Shown one piece after another: positions 32,875 through 38,122 of a DNA stretch of 64,000 bases; within the stretch, counting starts at the first letter, position 1; each line of letters opens with the position of its first letter. Source of the DNA: Promethearchaeota archaeon (GTDB lineage: Archaea; Asgardarchaeota; Lokiarchaeia; Sigyniarchaeales; SOKP01); assembly GCA_030599585.1 (NCBI GenBank), contig JAUVNS010000009.1:149233-213232 (forward strand). Reading direction: 5' to 3'. Made by a program: the position numbers and the translations under genes. The notes beneath the pieces are model-generated. The model had not been told where the DNA came from. It was given only the letters and a program-made list of their open reading frames with translations, and searched no databases.

Positions 32875-33663
32875 ATGTCAAATTGTCCTCGAATCAGCAG
32901 AATATGTGAAAATCATTCAACAATAATCCTAGATACAAATACACTTATTCATTATATGAAATATCTTTCTACAACAAAATACGAGGAAAGAAATTTTAGA
33001 GAGATTCTAAATGATTTTAGTCAATTGATTAGATTAATAAGTAATCAGTGTTCTTATGGAAGGTTATTTGCATCAGAATTAGTTTTAAATAGAGAATATA
33101 AAGGTACTTTTATTTATGAAGTTCGTTTTTTAAATAATTTAAGTAGAACCTATCAAAGGAGATTTACTGATTTGATAGAAACTAACTTAAAAATCCGTAG
33201 AATTCAACAAGACGAGTTAAGCGATTTAAGACCAATTGCTAATAATTTTTCTAGTCAGAGACATCTCTCACCCATCGACAATAGAGACTTATCACTATTA
33301 ATTGGAGCTTTAGAAGAAATAAATGAACATCCAAATTGGAGATTCTTAATTGTCACTGGTGATGATAGCTTTCGAAAGTTTGTTTCTTATGTTAAGGCTC
33401 AAAACCAAATAATTCTAGCTGGAACTACATTTAATACCTCTAACATTAATGGAGTCATTTTTCTAACCTATTTAACCCATTTATTTAAATGCTGTCAATA
33501 TAATGAACTGAAAGAATTTAGGATTGATATATTAATGAGAGAAATTTTTGGTAAAGAAGAACGAGTACAAAAGAGAAAATTAATAGAGTATAACAAATGG
33601 ATCTTTGAGGTTTATGGACCTGCTTTGCTTGAAAAACAATCTATTGGAGTGTGCACCAATTAA
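32875..33663 (+). CDS. PIN-domain-like ribonuclease
   Basis: IILDTN, E in VLNRE, D..D in IDNRDLSLL, IVTGDD..R: the PIN acidic tetrad. Confidence 0.7.
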   Translation: MSNCPRISRICENHSTIILDTNTLIHYMKYLSTTKYEERNFREILNDFSQLIRLISNQCSYGRLFASELVLNREYKGTFIYEVRFLNNLSRTYQRRFTDLIETNLKIRRIQQDELSDLRPIANNFSSQRHLSPIDNRDLSLLIGALEEINEHPNWRFLIVTGDDSFRKFVSYVKAQNQIILAGTTFNTSNINGVIFLTYLTHLFKCCQYNELKEFRIDILMREIFGKEERVQKRKLIEYNKWIFEVYGPALLEKQSIGVCTN

Positions 33664-33664
33664 A

Positions 33665-34423
33665 ATGAAGGAAAATCAAAAAGAATTCCCCGACGACTTG
33701 TTAAAAATTGAAGGTAAATTTGTTAATGATTATGATAAAATGAATTTATTTTTAGAATTTTTTGAAAAAATTAAAGAAATAATTTTTAAAAGACCAGAAA
33801 TCAGAATACAAGAAGTTGATTTTAAAACAAATTTGCCTGAGACGTCAAAAATGCTGCCTTTTACTTATAGCTTAGAAATTAATCAAAAACAATACCTACT
33901 TATAATTAATGATAATTCTCATCCTGTAATTACTAGAGAGGAATTGGAAGATTATCAAAATATTTTTACAATAAGTAAAAGTCAAGATGGTATTATTATT
34001 GTTTGGAATGATGAGAGATTATCCTCCATCAAAATATATAAAGATAATATTTATAGGCCCTTTCAAGATATAGTAGAGGATTTTGAAAATAAAATAGAAC
34101 CTTTAGAAACTAAGATTGTAAATGAGATTCATCTACGAAAACGTTTTATAACAGCTATCAAGGATCAATTAGAAGAAATTAAAATAGAAGAGGTTCCAGA
34201 TCCAGAGAAATCTTTTAAAAACGAATTACAAAATTCCTTTGATTATTTTCAAAATCGTCGGTTTAACGAACCAAAAAGGAAAATAATGCAGAATTTGATA
34301 TTTGATGATATTGCTTCTATAATTAAACTATTTTCTGAATACAATTCAGAGAAAATTGAAGAAAAACAACTTAGAGATAGACTTATAAAGATTATAATGG
34401 GAGAGGATGTAAAGATTGATTAA
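33665..34423 (+). CDS. Hypothetical protein, middle gene of the PIN-X-SMC operon
   Basis: ATG 1 bp after the PIN stop (preferred to TTG at 33605); overlaps the SMC gene by 8 bp. Confidence 0.75.
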   Translation: MKENQKEFPDDLLKIEGKFVNDYDKMNLFLEFFEKIKEIIFKRPEIRIQEVDFKTNLPETSKMLPFTYSLEINQKQYLLIINDNSHPVITREELEDYQNIFTISKSQDGIIIVWNDERLSSIKIYKDNIYRPFQDIVEDFENKIEPLETKIVNEIHLRKRFITAIKDQLEEIKIEEVPDPEKSFKNELQNSFDYFQNRRFNEPKRKIMQNLIFDDIASIIKLFSEYNSEKIEEKQLRDRLIKIIMGEDVKID

Positions 34424-36317
34424 TAAGCTTAGTATAAAGAATTGGAAATGCCATTCCGAATTGGATTTAAAATTTAAAAAGGGTGTTAATTTTATTATAG
34501 GTTATAACGGAATTGGAAAAACTTCTATTCTTGAAGCTATTGTTTTTAGTTTTGTTGGAAGAGTAAGAGGCAAGCAAAAAAAGCAGCTAAGAAAAATAGG
34601 AAGTGATGATGATACTCAAATATTACTTGAATTTACGCATGAAGAAAGAAAACATGAGATTAAAAGAGATTTTAATGGAAAGGCTTCAAATAATCTCAAA
34701 ATAGACGATCCTATTGAGGAATATAGTTCTGATGAGATTCTGGAACATATTCTCCAAATTTATAAAGTTAACCGAGCATTTTTTGAAAATATTTTCTATT
34801 CTCCTGAGGGAGAGATGTATGATTTTTTAAAATTAGATCAGAAAAATTTTGTCGAATTTTTGCAAAATTTAGTTGGTATCGGAAAAATAAATGAATTTAA
34901 GAACGTAGTGAATGATCTGAATAAACTTTACGATACGAAGAGGAAAGAAACTCAGAATTATCTTAAAGTTTTTAGAAAATTTGAAATTTCTGAAGAATTA
35001 GGGGACAAAATAGATATAAACCAAGATCTCAAGATTATAATAAAAAAATTAAGTGTAAATAATGAAATTACTCGAAATTTAAATAATGAATTGTCAAATT
35101 TAGGAAAGGAAAATGAGAACTTATACAGAGAAAACTACGATTACAGTAAAAAGCTTGAAGAATTAAAAGATATTTTCAGTAAAGAAAAGGATACTTTTTC
35201 AAAATTGGATTTAAAAGAATTTAGTCTCAAAGAGATACTTAATAATTTAAATATTTTTTATAATAGAGACAGGGGCCTAAAATCTAATCTAAAAAATTAT
35301 CGGGATTCTATAAAAGCGACCGAGGATTTAATTTCAGAAAAGAAAGCTAGTAAGAATGAGAAAACTAGGGTTGAAGTAATAATTAATAAATTAAAACATA
35401 ATTACGAGGAAGAAACACAAGTTTCTTGCCCACTCTGCAGAAAAAATCTAGAAAAAAAAGATTATATACAGATTTATAAAAACATTAATTTAGAAATTGA
35501 AGAATTAGAAAAATGGATTATGAAAAAACAAATTGAAGTTAAAAATTTAAGAAACCAGAGGCAGCAAACAAAGAGATCATGTCAAATTAATCAGAAAATA
35601 ATTAGATTAATAGAATCCATTCAAAATTTTGATAGGGATACAATTAAAGAAATGGATCAAAAGAATGTAAATCTTAATGAAAAAATTAATAGAATTGACC
35701 AAGAACTCAATATTTTAAATAATCAAAAGAGGGACCTTGAAAATAAAGAGAAGGCACTAAATCAAAGGCTTAGTGAGATTAAAGCTGCTGAAAGTATAAA
35801 AAACCAATTACAATATAAAGAACAACACCATAAAAATATCAAAGGATCATTGATTTGTGATATTATTAATGATGCTTTGAGCAGAGTTATGAAAGACCAA
35901 AGAAATTTTAACTTGGACGAAATTATAAGAGGGATTCAAAAGATCTGGAAAATATTTTTTCCCTATGAGGATCGAGAACTATTATTCGATGATAAATATT
36001 TACCTTATTTCGAAAAGGGAGGAGAAACTATTACATTTAATAATGCAAGTGCCGGAGAAAAGATGATTCTATTAATACTCATAAAAATAGCTCTTGCAAG
36101 AAAATATACAGCAATTCCATTTCTAATCTTTGATGAACCCTTAGAACACCTTAATTATGAAAACCGGATAAATATAATAAATTATCTAATAGATATATGC
36201 AGAAAAGGTCTTGTAAAACAACTTATTATCACTACTTTTGAAGAGTCTCTTACACGCCGATTTAGGAAAATGGAGGAAGTTAATGTGATATCATTACCAA
36301 GTTATTTAAAATATTAG
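34416..36317 (+). CDS. Rad50/SbcC-like SMC ATPase with Zn hook
   Basis: GYNGIGKTS Walker A, coiled coils, CPLC hook, ASAGEK signature, LIFDEP.EHL Walker B/D-loop. Confidence 0.9.
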   Translation: MINKLSIKNWKCHSELDLKFKKGVNFIIGYNGIGKTSILEAIVFSFVGRVRGKQKKQLRKIGSDDDTQILLEFTHEERKHEIKRDFNGKASNNLKIDDPIEEYSSDEILEHILQIYKVNRAFFENIFYSPEGEMYDFLKLDQKNFVEFLQNLVGIGKINEFKNVVNDLNKLYDTKRKETQNYLKVFRKFEISEELGDKIDINQDLKIIIKKLSVNNEITRNLNNELSNLGKENENLYRENYDYSKKLEELKDIFSKEKDTFSKLDLKEFSLKEILNNLNIFYNRDRGLKSNLKNYRDSIKATEDLISEKKASKNEKTRVEVIINKLKHNYEEETQVSCPLCRKNLEKKDYIQIYKNINLEIEELEKWIMKKQIEVKNLRNQRQQTKRSCQINQKIIRLIESIQNFDRDTIKEMDQKNVNLNEKINRIDQELNILNNQKRDLENKEKALNQRLSEIKAAESIKNQLQYKEQHHKNIKGSLICDIINDALSRVMKDQRNFNLDEIIRGIQKIWKIFFPYEDRELLFDDKYLPYFEKGGETITFNNASAGEKMILLILIKIALARKYTAIPFLIFDEPLEHLNYENRINIINYLIDICRKGLVKQLIITTFEESLTRRFRKMEEVNVISLPSYLKY

Positions 36318-36813: not shown

Positions 36814-37752
36814 TTAGGATTTGAACAAATTAGAAAAGTTTTTCAACATTAATTTTAGTTCTTCTCTACTAATTTCATAATATATTTTATGTTTCAGACG
36901 ATTATACTTAAATTTAATGCTCCTTAAGAGTTTTACCTCATTCTTATCCATTAAACCAGCAATCTCTGCTCCTCTAATAAGATCGAAAGAAGGAGGTGTA
37001 CTACTCATTCCTAATTTATGTAGCAGCCAGAGTTCTATTATCCTTCCTAAGCTAAGTAATCCTGCTTCTGGGCATTGTTCCGAAATATCTTTTGTTTTGT
37101 CGAGCTGATCTTGTAAGTAATTTGGTTTGAGAATAAATTTCGGGGGTTTATGGAAAATTTCTTCCATACATATTTGTATCTCTATCTCCAATTTATTCCA
37201 TAGGAAATTAAACTGATTTTGTATTTGTCGTATCGCATCATTACAAATCCATTCTTCTATTTCCGATTCATCTTTTGTTTCTAAGATAACTTGCTCTAAC
37301 TTTCTATCCCTTCGGGAATAACTAATAGTTATACCTTCTTTATTATCTTCTATGATATAATCTCCATAAACCTCATCTGTACTCCACACATCTTCTTCTA
37401 ATAGAAAAATTATGGATTTCTTAGATATTCTCCTTTCATTAGTTTTCAATAACGGATAAAATGTATTATCAAACCAATAGGAATACTTATTAAAAAAATT
37501 CCAAATGTTCTGTAAATGGTCTCTTAATTCAACTAGTAAGTTTTTTGGCCATTGATATTTAGGATTCTTAAATCGAGGTTTCCCTACTTTAAAGTTATCT
37601 TTTATCCTTTCATTATAATCCATTTCTCTAATCTCGGGGATTTCAAGAAGTTGACCATGCAGCTTTTTATGTTTTTCTAGGAGAGTTTCCCCTTCCGATT
37701 TTAAATCCAAGGTAATCCTCTTAAATGACTTATCTGTATTATAATGATTCAC
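36814..37752 (-). CDS. Protein with C-terminal HEPN/DUF4145-like domain
   Basis: AGLLSLGRIIELWL…GLMD…LRSIKFKYNRLKH, a HEPN-like helical pattern with a variant (K/Y)NxxxH motif. Confidence 0.6.
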   Translation of the reverse strand: MNHYNTDKSFKRITLDLKSEGETLLEKHKKLHGQLLEIPEIREMDYNERIKDNFKVGKPRFKNPKYQWPKNLLVELRDHLQNIWNFFNKYSYWFDNTFYPLLKTNERRISKKSIIFLLEEDVWSTDEVYGDYIIEDNKEGITISYSRRDRKLEQVILETKDESEIEEWICNDAIRQIQNQFNFLWNKLEIEIQICMEEIFHKPPKFILKPNYLQDQLDKTKDISEQCPEAGLLSLGRIIELWLLHKLGMSSTPPSFDLIRGAEIAGLMDKNEVKLLRSIKFKYNRLKHKIYYEISREELKLMLKNFSNLFKS

Positions 37753-38122
37753 TATATCTTCGTGTATTTATCTGTGTTCTATATTCTGTTTCAGTAAGCA
37801 ATCTTAAATCACACTTAATTTCTTCCTTCCATATTTTTATTACATTCATGCTACTTCCTTTATCAGCATTAACTTTTAAAATTGTTTTCAATTTATCTAT
37901 CACTTCAGTATAAACCTTTTGTTTAGACGAATTTCCAAATATCCAAAAAATTACATCAAGATCACTCTTATCTTTGTGTTCTCCTGTTGTTCGAGAGCCC
38001 CATCTTGCAACACCCCTGACATTATATCCCGAATTAGTATAGAGAAAATTTTTTAGATTTTTATAAAAAGCGGAATACCTTTGTTCTTCTTCTCTTCTTA
38101 TAGACATAAATTCACCTTTCAT
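37739..38122 (-). CDS. Minimal Pol-beta-family nucleotidyltransferase
   Basis: WGSRTTG…SDLDVIF plus a third Asp in KCDLRL; overlaps the HEPN gene by 14 bp. Confidence 0.85.
   Translation of the reverse strand: MKGEFMSIRREEEQRYSAFYKNLKNFLYTNSGYNVRGVARWGSRTTGEHKDKSDLDVIFWIFGNSSKQKVYTEVIDKLKTILKVNADKGSSMNVIKIWKEEIKCDLRLLTETEYRTQINTRRYSESL

What the first reader, a model, noticed from the sequence alone, without database searches (positions are those of the whole stretch)
32875..36317. PIN - unknown - Rad50-like SMC operon: Lamassu-like architecture with an RNase effector
Seen: three translationally coupled genes (1-bp gap, 8-bp overlap), a short 633-aa Zn-hook SMC with a non-canonical ASAGE signature, and no Mre11/SbcD. 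Known: Lamassu defence systems are effector + small subunit + Rad50-like DNA-end sensor. Inference: an archaeal system in which DNA-end sensing unleashes a PIN RNase. I do not recall PIN among described Lamassu effectors.
Basis: partly seen in the sequence, partly recalled or inferred. Interest (0 to 1): 0.7.

Follow-up and report, generated by a model that had tools for sequence, protein, structure and literature searches.

The report
PIN nuclease plus Rad50-like sensor cassette
A Loki-type Asgard archaeon carries a tightly packed three-gene cassette (a PIN nuclease, a small nuclease-fold adaptor and a shortened Rad50-like zinc-hook ATPase) that is laid out like the bacterial Lamassu anti-virus system, sits among defence genes, and belongs to a wider uncatalogued family also found in bacteria; its function is untested.

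Summary
Three co-directional genes lie at 32875-36317 with a 1-nt gap and an 8-nt overlap. A (262 aa) has a PIN fold with its four acidic residues conserved. B (252 aa) has an Hjc-like nuclease fold without conserved catalytic residues. C (633 aa) is a Rad50-like ABC ATPase with a CPLC hook. No Mre11 is adjacent, but the genome has three herA-mre11-rad50 operons elsewhere.

The triplet is conserved. In 62 of 74 related loci (GC 0.24-0.61) a PIN homologue sits two genes upstream of the ATPase, always with B between. These include Promethearchaeota and an Anaerolineales MAG. It is patchy (9 of 400 Asgard genomes) and lies near pAgo, Mokosh, DISARM, BREX and RM genes.

Lamassu membership is not shown. 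A and B match no PADLOC model. The LmuB model hit is unspecific. The ATPase family is closest to archaeal Rad50 and forms its own clade. The effector is almost constant, not swappable. The Q-loop Gln and H-loop His are replaced family-wide.

Best reading (about 0.55): an uncatalogued Lamassu-like abortive-infection system. RNA targeting and DNA-end sensing are inferred. This scan already flagged the same cassette in other Asgard genomes; the reach into bacteria is new here.

The parts
32875..33663 (+). Gene A, 262 aa: PIN-fold nuclease (residues about 12-210) plus a C-terminal three-helix extension (196-257).
   Evidence: AF2 pLDDT 84. VIA Z 10.6, rmsd 3.7, 142/142 aligned to PIN protein 1ye5; all top 50 matches are PIN proteins. 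Weak Pfam NYN hit, 18.1 bits, below the 24.2 cut-off.
32932..33363 (+). Span holding the codons of the PIN acidic quartet: D20 (32932-32934), E74 (33094-33096), D138 (33286-33288), D163 (33361-33363).
   Evidence: Conserved in 90, 88, 96 and 94% of 53 distinct family members. D20, D138 and D163 are invariant in close relatives.
33665..34423 (+). Gene B, 252 aa: middle component. N-terminal restriction-endonuclease/Hjc-like fold (about 25-160) and a C-terminal helical part. No conserved catalytic residues.
   Evidence: AF2 pLDDT 75. VIA wide search: Hjc 1gef Z 7.8, rmsd 3.6, 115/120 aligned; the list is dominated by PD-(D/E)xK-fold nucleases. Only W114 and L147 reach 75% conservation in 50 sequences. 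No Pfam, PADLOC or NCBIfam hit.
34416..36317 (+). Gene C, 633 aa: short Rad50-like coiled-coil ABC ATPase.
   Evidence: Pfam AAA_23 and SMC_N. NCBIfam Rad50 models hit far below their cut-offs. The family profile's best PDB hits are archaeal Rad50, 1.4e-52. It forms its own clade with SH-aLRT 100.
34500..34526 (+). Walker A, G29-S37 (GYNGIGKTS).
   Evidence: G29, N31, G32, G34, K35 and T36 are invariant in 13 relatives.
34797..34814 (+). Q-loop equivalent YSPEGE (128-133). The Gln is replaced by an invariant Glu (E131).
   Evidence: The HMM alignment to M. jannaschii and P. furiosus Rad50 puts 'msEGd' over 'IKQGE' and 'IRQGQ'. E131 is invariant in 55 sequences.
35427..35438 (+). Zinc-hook motif C338-P-L-C341.
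   Evidence: C338, P339 and C341 are invariant in 55 sequences.
36048..36062 (+). Signature motif S545-A-G-E-K549.
   Evidence: S545 and E548 are invariant. The wider consensus is LSGGEK.
36120..36155 (+). Walker B and D-loop, FLIFDEPLEHLN (569-580).
   Evidence: F569, D573, E574 and P575 are invariant in 55 sequences.
36219..36242 (+). H-loop equivalent QLIITTFE (602-609). The switch His is replaced by Phe.
   Evidence: The HMM alignment puts 'QlIvTTfEesL' over P. furiosus Rad50 'QVILVSHDEEL'.

Best explanation
The three genes encode one complex that works as an accessory immune or abortive-infection module with the logic of Lamassu. C dimerises through its CPLC zinc hook. Its Rad50-type heads bind ATP and DNA, and so sense an abnormal DNA state such as free ends of invading or replicating foreign DNA. 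The Q-loop Gln and the H-loop His are replaced in the whole family, so ATP turnover is probably slow and the ATPase acts as a switch rather than a motor. B is a nuclease-fold protein without catalytic residues and serves as the structural adaptor between C and A. A is a PIN nuclease with an intact D-E-D-D site. It is held inactive on the complex through its C-terminal helices and is activated or released on sensing. It then cuts nucleic acid, most likely RNA to judge by its nearest structural relatives, which stops growth of the infected cell.

Shown here: the folds, the motifs, conservation of the triplet, its patchy distribution and its defence-gene neighbourhood. Inferred: complex formation (weak support only), the DNA trigger, the slow ATPase, the RNA target and the defence outcome.
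For: Operon structure:
- The genes are tightly coupled.
- After one HMM iteration, B homologues fill 70 of 81 positions just upstream of the ATPase, and PIN homologues fill 62 of 74 positions two genes upstream. All 62 loci with A also have B. These loci have GC 0.24-0.61. Titled loci include Promethearchaeota, an uncultured archaeon and an Anaerolineales MAG.

Proteins:
- PIN fold with the catalytic quartet conserved.
- Rad50-like ATPase with a hook, but Q-loop Q to E and H-loop H to F.

Accessory character:
- 1 of 36 congeners carries it. 9 of 400 Asgard genomes and 2 of 90 high-quality ones carry it; one genome has two copies.
- The flanks are not syntenic in congeners.
- The genome already has three herA-mre11-rad50 operons.

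Neighbours of about 45 loci:
- pAgo x3, Mokosh MkoA/MkoC x3, DISARM DrmMI x2, type IIG RM, BrxL, ZacA and Hhe.
- Piwi, Eco57I, MmeI, type I RM and ParB_N.
- PglZ, GmrSD and toxin-antitoxin clusters.

Complex prediction of A against B plus C(150-500):
- Weak support. Score 0.57 (runs 0.57, 0.35, 0.59); best of 3 controls 0.00.
- The mark was reached by 58 of 80 solved complexes and 2 of 110 mismatched pairs. At 0.60 or under it was reached by only 7 of those 80 and by both mismatches that passed.
- The runs agree in at least 64% of contacts; partner pLDDT is at least 75.
- My own alignments and a three-chain job differ from the calibration.
Against: - No experiment exists for any member.
- A and B match no known defence family: PADLOC gives 0 hits.
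- The window's immediate neighbours give no strong PADLOC hits apart from a minimal nucleotidyltransferase.
- Some relatives sit among housekeeping genes (L004).
- The defence-neighbour tally has no matched control.
- The ATPase is closest to a DNA-repair protein.
- PIN-like domains include DNA flap nucleases, so an RNA target is not established.
- No family member was found on IMG/VR viral contigs, so carriage by mobile elements is not shown.
Confidence: 0.55

Rival explanations
1. It is a genuine, very divergent member of the Lamassu family (LmuA-LmuC-LmuB) that has picked up a PIN effector.
For: Same gene order and size classes. C has the length of a short LmuB, a single CxxC motif and a Walker B of the hhhhDE type allowed for short LmuB (PMC12663957). 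PADLOC LmuB model PDLC03859 aligns end to end, 80.5 bits.
Against: PDLC03859 rings in all 14 control genomes. It scores the Mre11-linked Rad50 paralogues of this genome higher (112, 103 and 80 bits against 78). No LmuA or LmuC model matches A or B, or their bacterial relatives. The family profile hits archaeal Rad50 at 1e-52 and SbcC at only 8e-17, with no LmuB among the 60 best PDB sequences, whereas Lamassu is derived from SbcCD (PMC12663957). The effector is nearly constant. A's C-terminal part has three helices, not the 5-6-helix bundle described for short LmuA.
Confidence: 0.12
2. It is a DNA-repair or recombination paralogue: a Rad50-like clamp that uses a PIN-like nuclease instead of Mre11 to process DNA ends or stalled forks.
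For: Its nearest relatives are archaeal Rad50. The lineage multiplies Rad50 operons, with three herA-mre11-rad50 loci. One relative has a metallophosphoesterase gene in the effector position (L036). B has a Holliday-junction-resolvase-like fold. Some PIN-like domains are DNA nucleases (general knowledge).
Against: It is present in only 9 of 400 Asgard genomes, is not syntenic and lies near defence genes. The Q-loop and H-loop residues needed for normal Rad50 ATPase turnover are replaced. B lacks conserved catalytic residues. A's best structural matches are RNases of the VapC, HARP and Nob1/SMG6 kind, not FEN-type nucleases.
Confidence: 0.15
3. It is an addiction or stabilisation module of integrated mobile elements: a VapC-like PIN toxin neutralised by B and regulated by the ATPase. 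It would serve element maintenance rather than host defence.
For: PIN toxins are classic toxin-antitoxin components. ParB_N-HTH genes lie divergently upstream in several relatives. The region has the lowest GC of the window, 0.25-0.26. The location varies between genomes.
Against: B and C are far larger than toxin-antitoxin partners. No integrase or replication gene is adjacent. No family member was found in IMG/VR. ParB is absent from this window's cassette and from many loci.
Confidence: 0.1

Closest known systems
Short type II Lamassu (LmuA-LmuC-LmuB; DdmABC; ABC-3C)
   Same: Order effector, middle component, SMC-like ATPase. ATPase of about 600 aa with a short coiled coil and a CxxC hook. 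Effector domain at the N-terminus with a helical C-terminal extension. ATPase motifs altered in a way that suggests slow hydrolysis. Accessory genes in defence islands.
   Different: No detectable sequence similarity of A to LmuA or of B to LmuC. The ATPase is nearer to archaeal Rad50 than to SbcC or LmuB. PIN is not among the described LmuA effectors. The effector is almost invariant instead of modular. B has a nuclease-like fold. Here the altered residues are the Q-loop Gln and H-loop His; in Lamassu it is the Walker B Glu.
Archaeal Rad50-Mre11 (with HerA and NurA)
   Same: Head-domain sequence (best PDB matches), zinc hook, antiparallel coiled coil, and a nuclease partner gene just upstream.
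   Different: About 250 aa shorter. No Mre11, HerA or NurA. Q-loop Gln and H-loop His replaced. Separate clade. Patchy, not universal. The genome keeps three canonical operons elsewhere.
RloC (Rad50-like zinc-hook ATPase fused to an anticodon nuclease)
   Same: A Rad50-like sensor with a zinc hook coupled to a probable RNase as a suicide or defence output. The comparison rests on general knowledge and on the citation in PMC12663957.
   Different: RloC is one polypeptide with a HEPN-type tRNase. Here the nuclease is a separate PIN protein and a third, adaptor protein is needed. No sequence comparison with RloC was run.
VapC-type PIN toxins and HARP RNase P
   Same: Fold and acidic quartet of protein A (Z 9.5-10.6).
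   Different: A carries extra helices inside the PIN domain and a conserved C-terminal extension (C207 in 98%, K254 in 88% of members). It has no small antitoxin partner.

Membership tests
Lamassu (LmuA-LmuC-LmuB) | SMC/Rad50-like ATPase of about 600-800 aa with a short coiled coil, Walker A, and Walker B hhhhD[QSTE] (short type) or hhhhDD (long type), with or without a CxxC hook | tested here: met
   633 aa, GYNGIGKTS, FLIFDE, one CPLC. The criteria are from PMC12663957. This feature does not tell LmuB apart from other short Rad50-like proteins.
Lamassu (LmuA-LmuC-LmuB) | The ATPase belongs to the LmuB clade rather than to Rad50 or SbcC | tested here: inconclusive
   PDLC03859 gives 80.5 bits, but it rings in 14 of 14 control genomes and scores Mre11-linked Rad50s higher. 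Other LmuB models give 43-48 bits. The best PDB matches are archaeal Rad50, with no LmuB among the 60 listed. No curated LmuB sequences were available for a tree.
Lamassu (LmuA-LmuC-LmuB) | Effector protein with a recognisable LmuA C-terminal docking domain | tested here: not met
   No PADLOC LmuA model matches A at E up to 1, nor four bacterial or archaeal relatives at E up to 0.01. The model shows three C-terminal helices, against the 5-6-helix bundle described for short LmuA.
Lamassu (LmuA-LmuC-LmuB) | Middle component related to LmuC | tested here: inconclusive
   No PADLOC LmuC match. No LmuC chain appears among the fold-search rows. LmuC is known to be too divergent for sequence methods (PMC12663957).
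Lamassu (LmuA-LmuC-LmuB) | Gene order effector, middle component, ATPase in one operon | tested here: met
Lamassu (LmuA-LmuC-LmuB) | Modular, swappable effector domains on a conserved core | tested here: not met
   All 62 loci with a recognisable position-2 protein carry PIN. One locus has a metallophosphoesterase plus a 185-aa protein instead.
Lamassu (LmuA-LmuC-LmuB) | Protects against phage or plasmids, dependent on the ATPase and the effector | not testable with these tools
Housekeeping Rad50-Mre11 | Adjacent Mre11/SbcD phosphoesterase gene | tested here: not met
   No Metallophos among the flanking ORFs. The paralogues on contigs C38, C12 and C22 have HerA and Metallophos genes upstream.
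Housekeeping Rad50-Mre11 | Canonical Q-loop Gln and H-loop His | tested here: not met
   E131 and F608 align to the Gln and His of M. jannaschii and P. furiosus Rad50.
Housekeeping Rad50-Mre11 | Groups with Mre11-linked Rad50 in a tree and is broadly present in the lineage | tested here: not met
   Separate clade with SH-aLRT 100. Present in 9 of 400 Asgard genomes.
PIN domain superfamily (protein A) | PIN fold with four conserved acidic residues | tested here: met
   Z 10.6 over whole PIN chains. D20, E74, D138 and D163 are conserved in 88-96% of members. By sequence alone only NYN at 18.1 bits, below the 24.2 cut-off.
RloC | Nuclease fused to the zinc-hook ATPase in one polypeptide | tested here: not met
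   C ends 25 residues after the H-loop equivalent. The nuclease is a separate gene.

The most novel reading that the evidence does not exclude
This is an uncatalogued SMC-based immune system. It arose from archaeal-type Rad50 independently of the SbcCD-derived Lamassu and converged on the same three-part design. It uses a fixed PIN RNase as its killing arm, and it has spread between Asgard archaea and bacteria.
Probability: 0.4. Interest if true: 0.75.

Novelty: new variant of a known kind. Interest (0 to 1): 0.6.

Why it matters
If it is a defence system, DNA-repair clamps of the Rad50 type would have been turned into immune sensors at least twice, once from SbcCD (Lamassu) and once from archaeal-type Rad50. 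It would also add an RNA-directed or PIN-based output to SMC-based immunity.

The family is large enough to study: 371 clusters at 50% identity score E below 1e-30 with the ATPase profile, a count that also includes some canonical Rad50s. It occurs in bacteria with ordinary GC content, so it could be tested in E. coli even though the Asgard host cannot be. It would also fill a gap in Asgard defensome surveys, whose main texts do not mention Lamassu, Rad50 or SMC systems (PMC11291487, PMC13700489).

Tried and rejected
- The PADLOC LmuB hit as proof of Lamassu. Rejected after the same model rang in all 14 control genomes and scored true Mre11-linked Rad50s higher.
- Effector modularity. I expected swappable effectors after finding L036 (Metallophos). 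Iterated HMMs showed PIN in 62 of 62 informative loci.
- Sequence searches of A and B against Pfam, NCBIfam, PADLOC and PDB. Nothing significant came up beyond a weak NYN hit. The word-index homologue searches found only the family itself.
- ESM Atlas look-ups. All scores were under 0.9, so they are leads only: DUF4935 and PIN_halo for A, PDDEXK_3 and MunI for B.
- LmuC or LmuB chains among fold or sequence matches in PDB. None was listed. This does not exclude them.
- Viral contigs. Only N-terminal head matches to other ATPases, and no family member.
- Flanking repeats as insertion scars. Only 79%-identical 29-nt AT-rich matches (32708 and 36763), probably chance.
- Empty-site reconstruction in congeners. 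The flanks have no syntenic counterpart, only scattered gene fragments and a short repeat.
- The protein downstream of the sister-clade ATPase in L037 against the PIN profile. No significant match.
- Krishnan et al. 2020 (ABC-3C classification) could not be read because it is not held.
- No tRNA or Rfam family in the window.
Full report
**What is in the sequence**

Three co-directional ORFs fill 32875-36317.
- A runs 32875-33663 (262 aa).
- B starts at ATG 33665, one base after A's stop, and ends at 34423 (252 aa).
- C starts at TTG 34416, eight bases before B's stop, and ends at 36317 (633 aa).
- The N-termini of homologues support these starts.
- The cassette lies in the lowest-GC stretch of the window, 0.25-0.26. 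About 840 bp without a long ORF lie upstream, and a convergent small ORF lies downstream.
- The window has no tRNA or Rfam match.

**Protein A**

- By sequence there is only a sub-threshold NYN hit.
- An AlphaFold2 model from 13 relatives (pLDDT 84) matches PIN proteins over their whole length. The best is 1ye5 with Z 10.6, rmsd 3.7 and 142/142 aligned. All 50 best rows are PIN domains of the VapC, HARP, Nob1, SMG6 and Rrp44 kind.
- In 53 distinct family members D20, E74, D138 and D163 are kept in 88-96%. This is the PIN acidic quartet, so A is probably an active nuclease.
- Residues 196-257 form three helices. They hold a nearly universal Cys (C207, 98%) and K254 (88%).

**Protein B**

- B has no family hit.
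- Its model (pLDDT 75) has an alpha-beta N-domain. The best matches are Holliday-junction resolvase Hjc (1gef, Z 7.8, rmsd 3.6, 115/120 aligned) and many other PD-(D/E)xK-fold nucleases.
- That Z is marginal by the tool's own note, but the rows are consistent in fold.
- Only W114 and L147 are conserved across 50 relatives. I therefore read B as a non-catalytic adaptor.

**Protein C**

- C has Walker A, a mid-coil CPLC, signature SAGEK and Walker B/D-loop FDEPLEHLN.
- The profile alignment to M. jannaschii and P. furiosus Rad50 shows two family-wide replacements. The Q-loop Gln is Glu (E131) and the H-loop His is Phe (F608).
- Both residues support hydrolysis in ABC ATPases (established knowledge). 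Slow turnover is my inference.

**Is it Rad50, LmuB or something else?**

- PADLOC's LmuB model PDLC03859 aligns end to end at 80.5 bits. The same model rings in all 14 control genomes. In this genome it scores three other proteins higher, at 112, 103 and 80 bits.
- Those three proteins lie in herA-mre11-rad50 operons. The LmuB hit is therefore not specific, and canonical Rad50-Mre11 exists elsewhere in three copies.
- A profile of 55 family ATPases hits archaeal Rad50 best in PDB (3aux 1.4e-52, 3qku 3.7e-44), then eukaryotic RAD50 (1e-38), then SbcC at only 8e-17. No LmuB chain is among the 60 rows shown.
- In a head-domain tree the family, including its bacterial relatives, forms a clade with SH-aLRT 100. 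This clade is apart from long Rad50-like proteins and from the genome's Mre11-linked Rad50s.
- I had no curated LmuB sequences, so the position relative to LmuB is untested.

**Conservation of the triplet**

- Close relatives (28-51% identity) all carry genes of about 260-305 aa and about 245-271 aa upstream of the ATPase.
- An exhaustive profile search found 371 clusters at E below 1e-30. Most of the best 150 are 580-640 aa and align end to end.
- I took 81 loci from genome and metagenome scans and built HMMs of A and B. After one iteration, B homologues fill 70 of 81 positions just upstream of the ATPase. PIN homologues fill 62 of 74 positions two genes upstream. All 62 loci with A also have B.
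- These loci span GC 0.24-0.61. Titled loci include Promethearchaeota MAGs, an uncultured archaeon chromosome and an Anaerolineales MAG.
- The family is thus not confined to Asgard archaea.
- One locus (L036) has a metallophosphoesterase plus a 185-aa protein in place of PIN, with B and C kept.
- High-GC actinobacterial relatives at 20-26% identity have other partners.

**Accessory character and neighbourhood**

- The ATPase is found in 1 of 36 congeners. It is found in 9 of 400 Asgard genomes and 2 of 90 high-quality ones. One genome holds two copies.
- In the congener G028 the cassette has entirely different neighbours. The window's flanks have no syntenic counterpart in 41 congeners.
- I scanned 138 flanking proteins from about 45 loci. 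PADLOC at E up to 1e-15 gives pAgo x3, Mokosh MkoA/MkoC x3, DISARM DrmMI x2, type IIG RM, Hhe x2, BrxL and ZacA.
- Pfam on the same set gives ParB_N x4, Piwi, Eco57I and MmeI methylases, type I RM and NucS.
- This fits a defence island, but I ran no matched control.
- In the window itself the immediate neighbours are an LRR protein, unknowns and a minimal nucleotidyltransferase.
- No family member was found in IMG/VR.

**Complex prediction**

- I tested A as the partner against B plus residues 150-500 of C. The verdict was weak support.
- The score was 0.57 (runs 0.57, 0.35, 0.59) and the best of three controls was 0.00.
- The mark was reached by 58 of 80 solved complexes and 2 of 110 mismatched pairs. 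At 0.60 or under it was reached by only 7 of those 80 and by both mismatches that passed.
- The runs agree in at least 64% of contacts, and the partner pLDDT is at least 75.
- The job differs from the calibration because it used my own alignments and three chains.
- The control that replaced the coiled-coil chain scored 0.00.

**Comparison with the literature**

- Lamassu comprises an LmuA effector with a C-terminal docking domain, LmuC, and an SMC-like LmuB of about 600 or about 800 aa with 0-2 CxxC motifs.
- The listed effectors are Cap4, Mrr, PD-(D/E)xK, HNH, Sir2, protease, hydrolase, lipase, FMO, SMEK, TIR and amidase-type domains. PIN is not among them (PMC12663957; PMC10586767).
- Lamassu is proposed to derive from bacterial SbcCD. 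It was found in only seven archaeal genomes, none of them Asgard (PMC12663957).
- Two Asgard defensome papers do not mention Lamassu, Rad50 or SMC in their main text.
- Earlier notes of this scan had flagged the same cassette in other Asgard genomes and reached similar conclusions. They described it as rare and limited to Asgard archaea. My searches extend it to bacteria.

**Verdict**

- The cassette works most plausibly like Lamassu, with a Rad50-type sensor, an adaptor and a sequestered nuclease.
- It fails or leaves open every specific Lamassu membership test I could run. It looks like a separate, Rad50-derived lineage with a fixed PIN effector.
- Function, trigger and substrate remain inferred.

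Noticed in passing
G000 contigs C38 (L032 5045-10055), C12 (L033 2101-7111), C22 (L034 5113-11548): The genome carries three herA-mre11-rad50 operons with unusually short Rad50 proteins (693-701 aa). Two of the Rad50s are nearly identical to each other and one is divergent. The divergent operon has an extra 393-aa gene between herA and mre11.
   Followed up: partly
window about 30150-30235, also 30267-30308 and 30339-30431: A short sequence of about 80 nt recurs at 80-95% identity in many copies across most genomes of the genus, and elsewhere in this genome. It may be a MITE-like or regulatory repeat.
   Followed up: no
L002 1524-3995 (-), L007 1481-3952 (-), L023 5830-7958 (-): A ParB_N + HTH_ParB gene lies divergently upstream of the cassette in several relatives. 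It is 823 aa where whole. In G028 it is split into 368 aa plus 302 aa, and the second part carries TaqI_C and HhH domains. It is absent from this window. It could be a linked fourth component or a methylase-type neighbour.
   Followed up: partly
L036 3684-5988: A variant cassette in which a 343-aa metallophosphoesterase and a 185-aa unknown protein replace the PIN gene upstream of B and C.
   Followed up: partly
L039 3346-4250 and L042 3414-6911: One Promethearchaeota MAG (LW40_87) holds two copies of the cassette. In one copy the PIN gene is split into 180-aa and 116-aa pieces, probably by a frameshift or an assembly error.
   Followed up: no
L007 8816-13450 (-): A second SMC-like ATPase (627 aa, LmuB-model hit of 62.8 bits) sits with an 890-aa unknown partner 0.8-5 kb downstream of the cassette, next to a GmrSD gene. 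It may be another SMC-based system.
   Followed up: no
window 36814-38122 (-): A minimal nucleotidyltransferase (127 aa; Pfam NTP_transf_2 and Polbeta, PADLOC PDC-S09) overlaps a 312-aa unknown ORF by 14 nt. It may be an MNT-type toxin-antitoxin pair. The 312-aa gene has a 73%-identical paralogue on contig C35.
   Followed up: no
window 32884-32907 and 33490-33495: Protein A has cysteines at 4 and 11 near its N-terminus and at 206-207 in its C-terminal part. C4 is invariant in close relatives and C207 is kept in 98% of the wide family. A metal or disulphide site joining the two ends is possible.
   Followed up: no
L037 5780-8799: In a sister clade (Jordarchaeia/Freyarchaeota) the short zinc-hook ATPase is preceded by a 71-aa protein and followed by a 314-aa protein. 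This differs from the PIN-B order. The locus lies in an island of VapC and HicAB toxin-antitoxin genes.
   Followed up: partly
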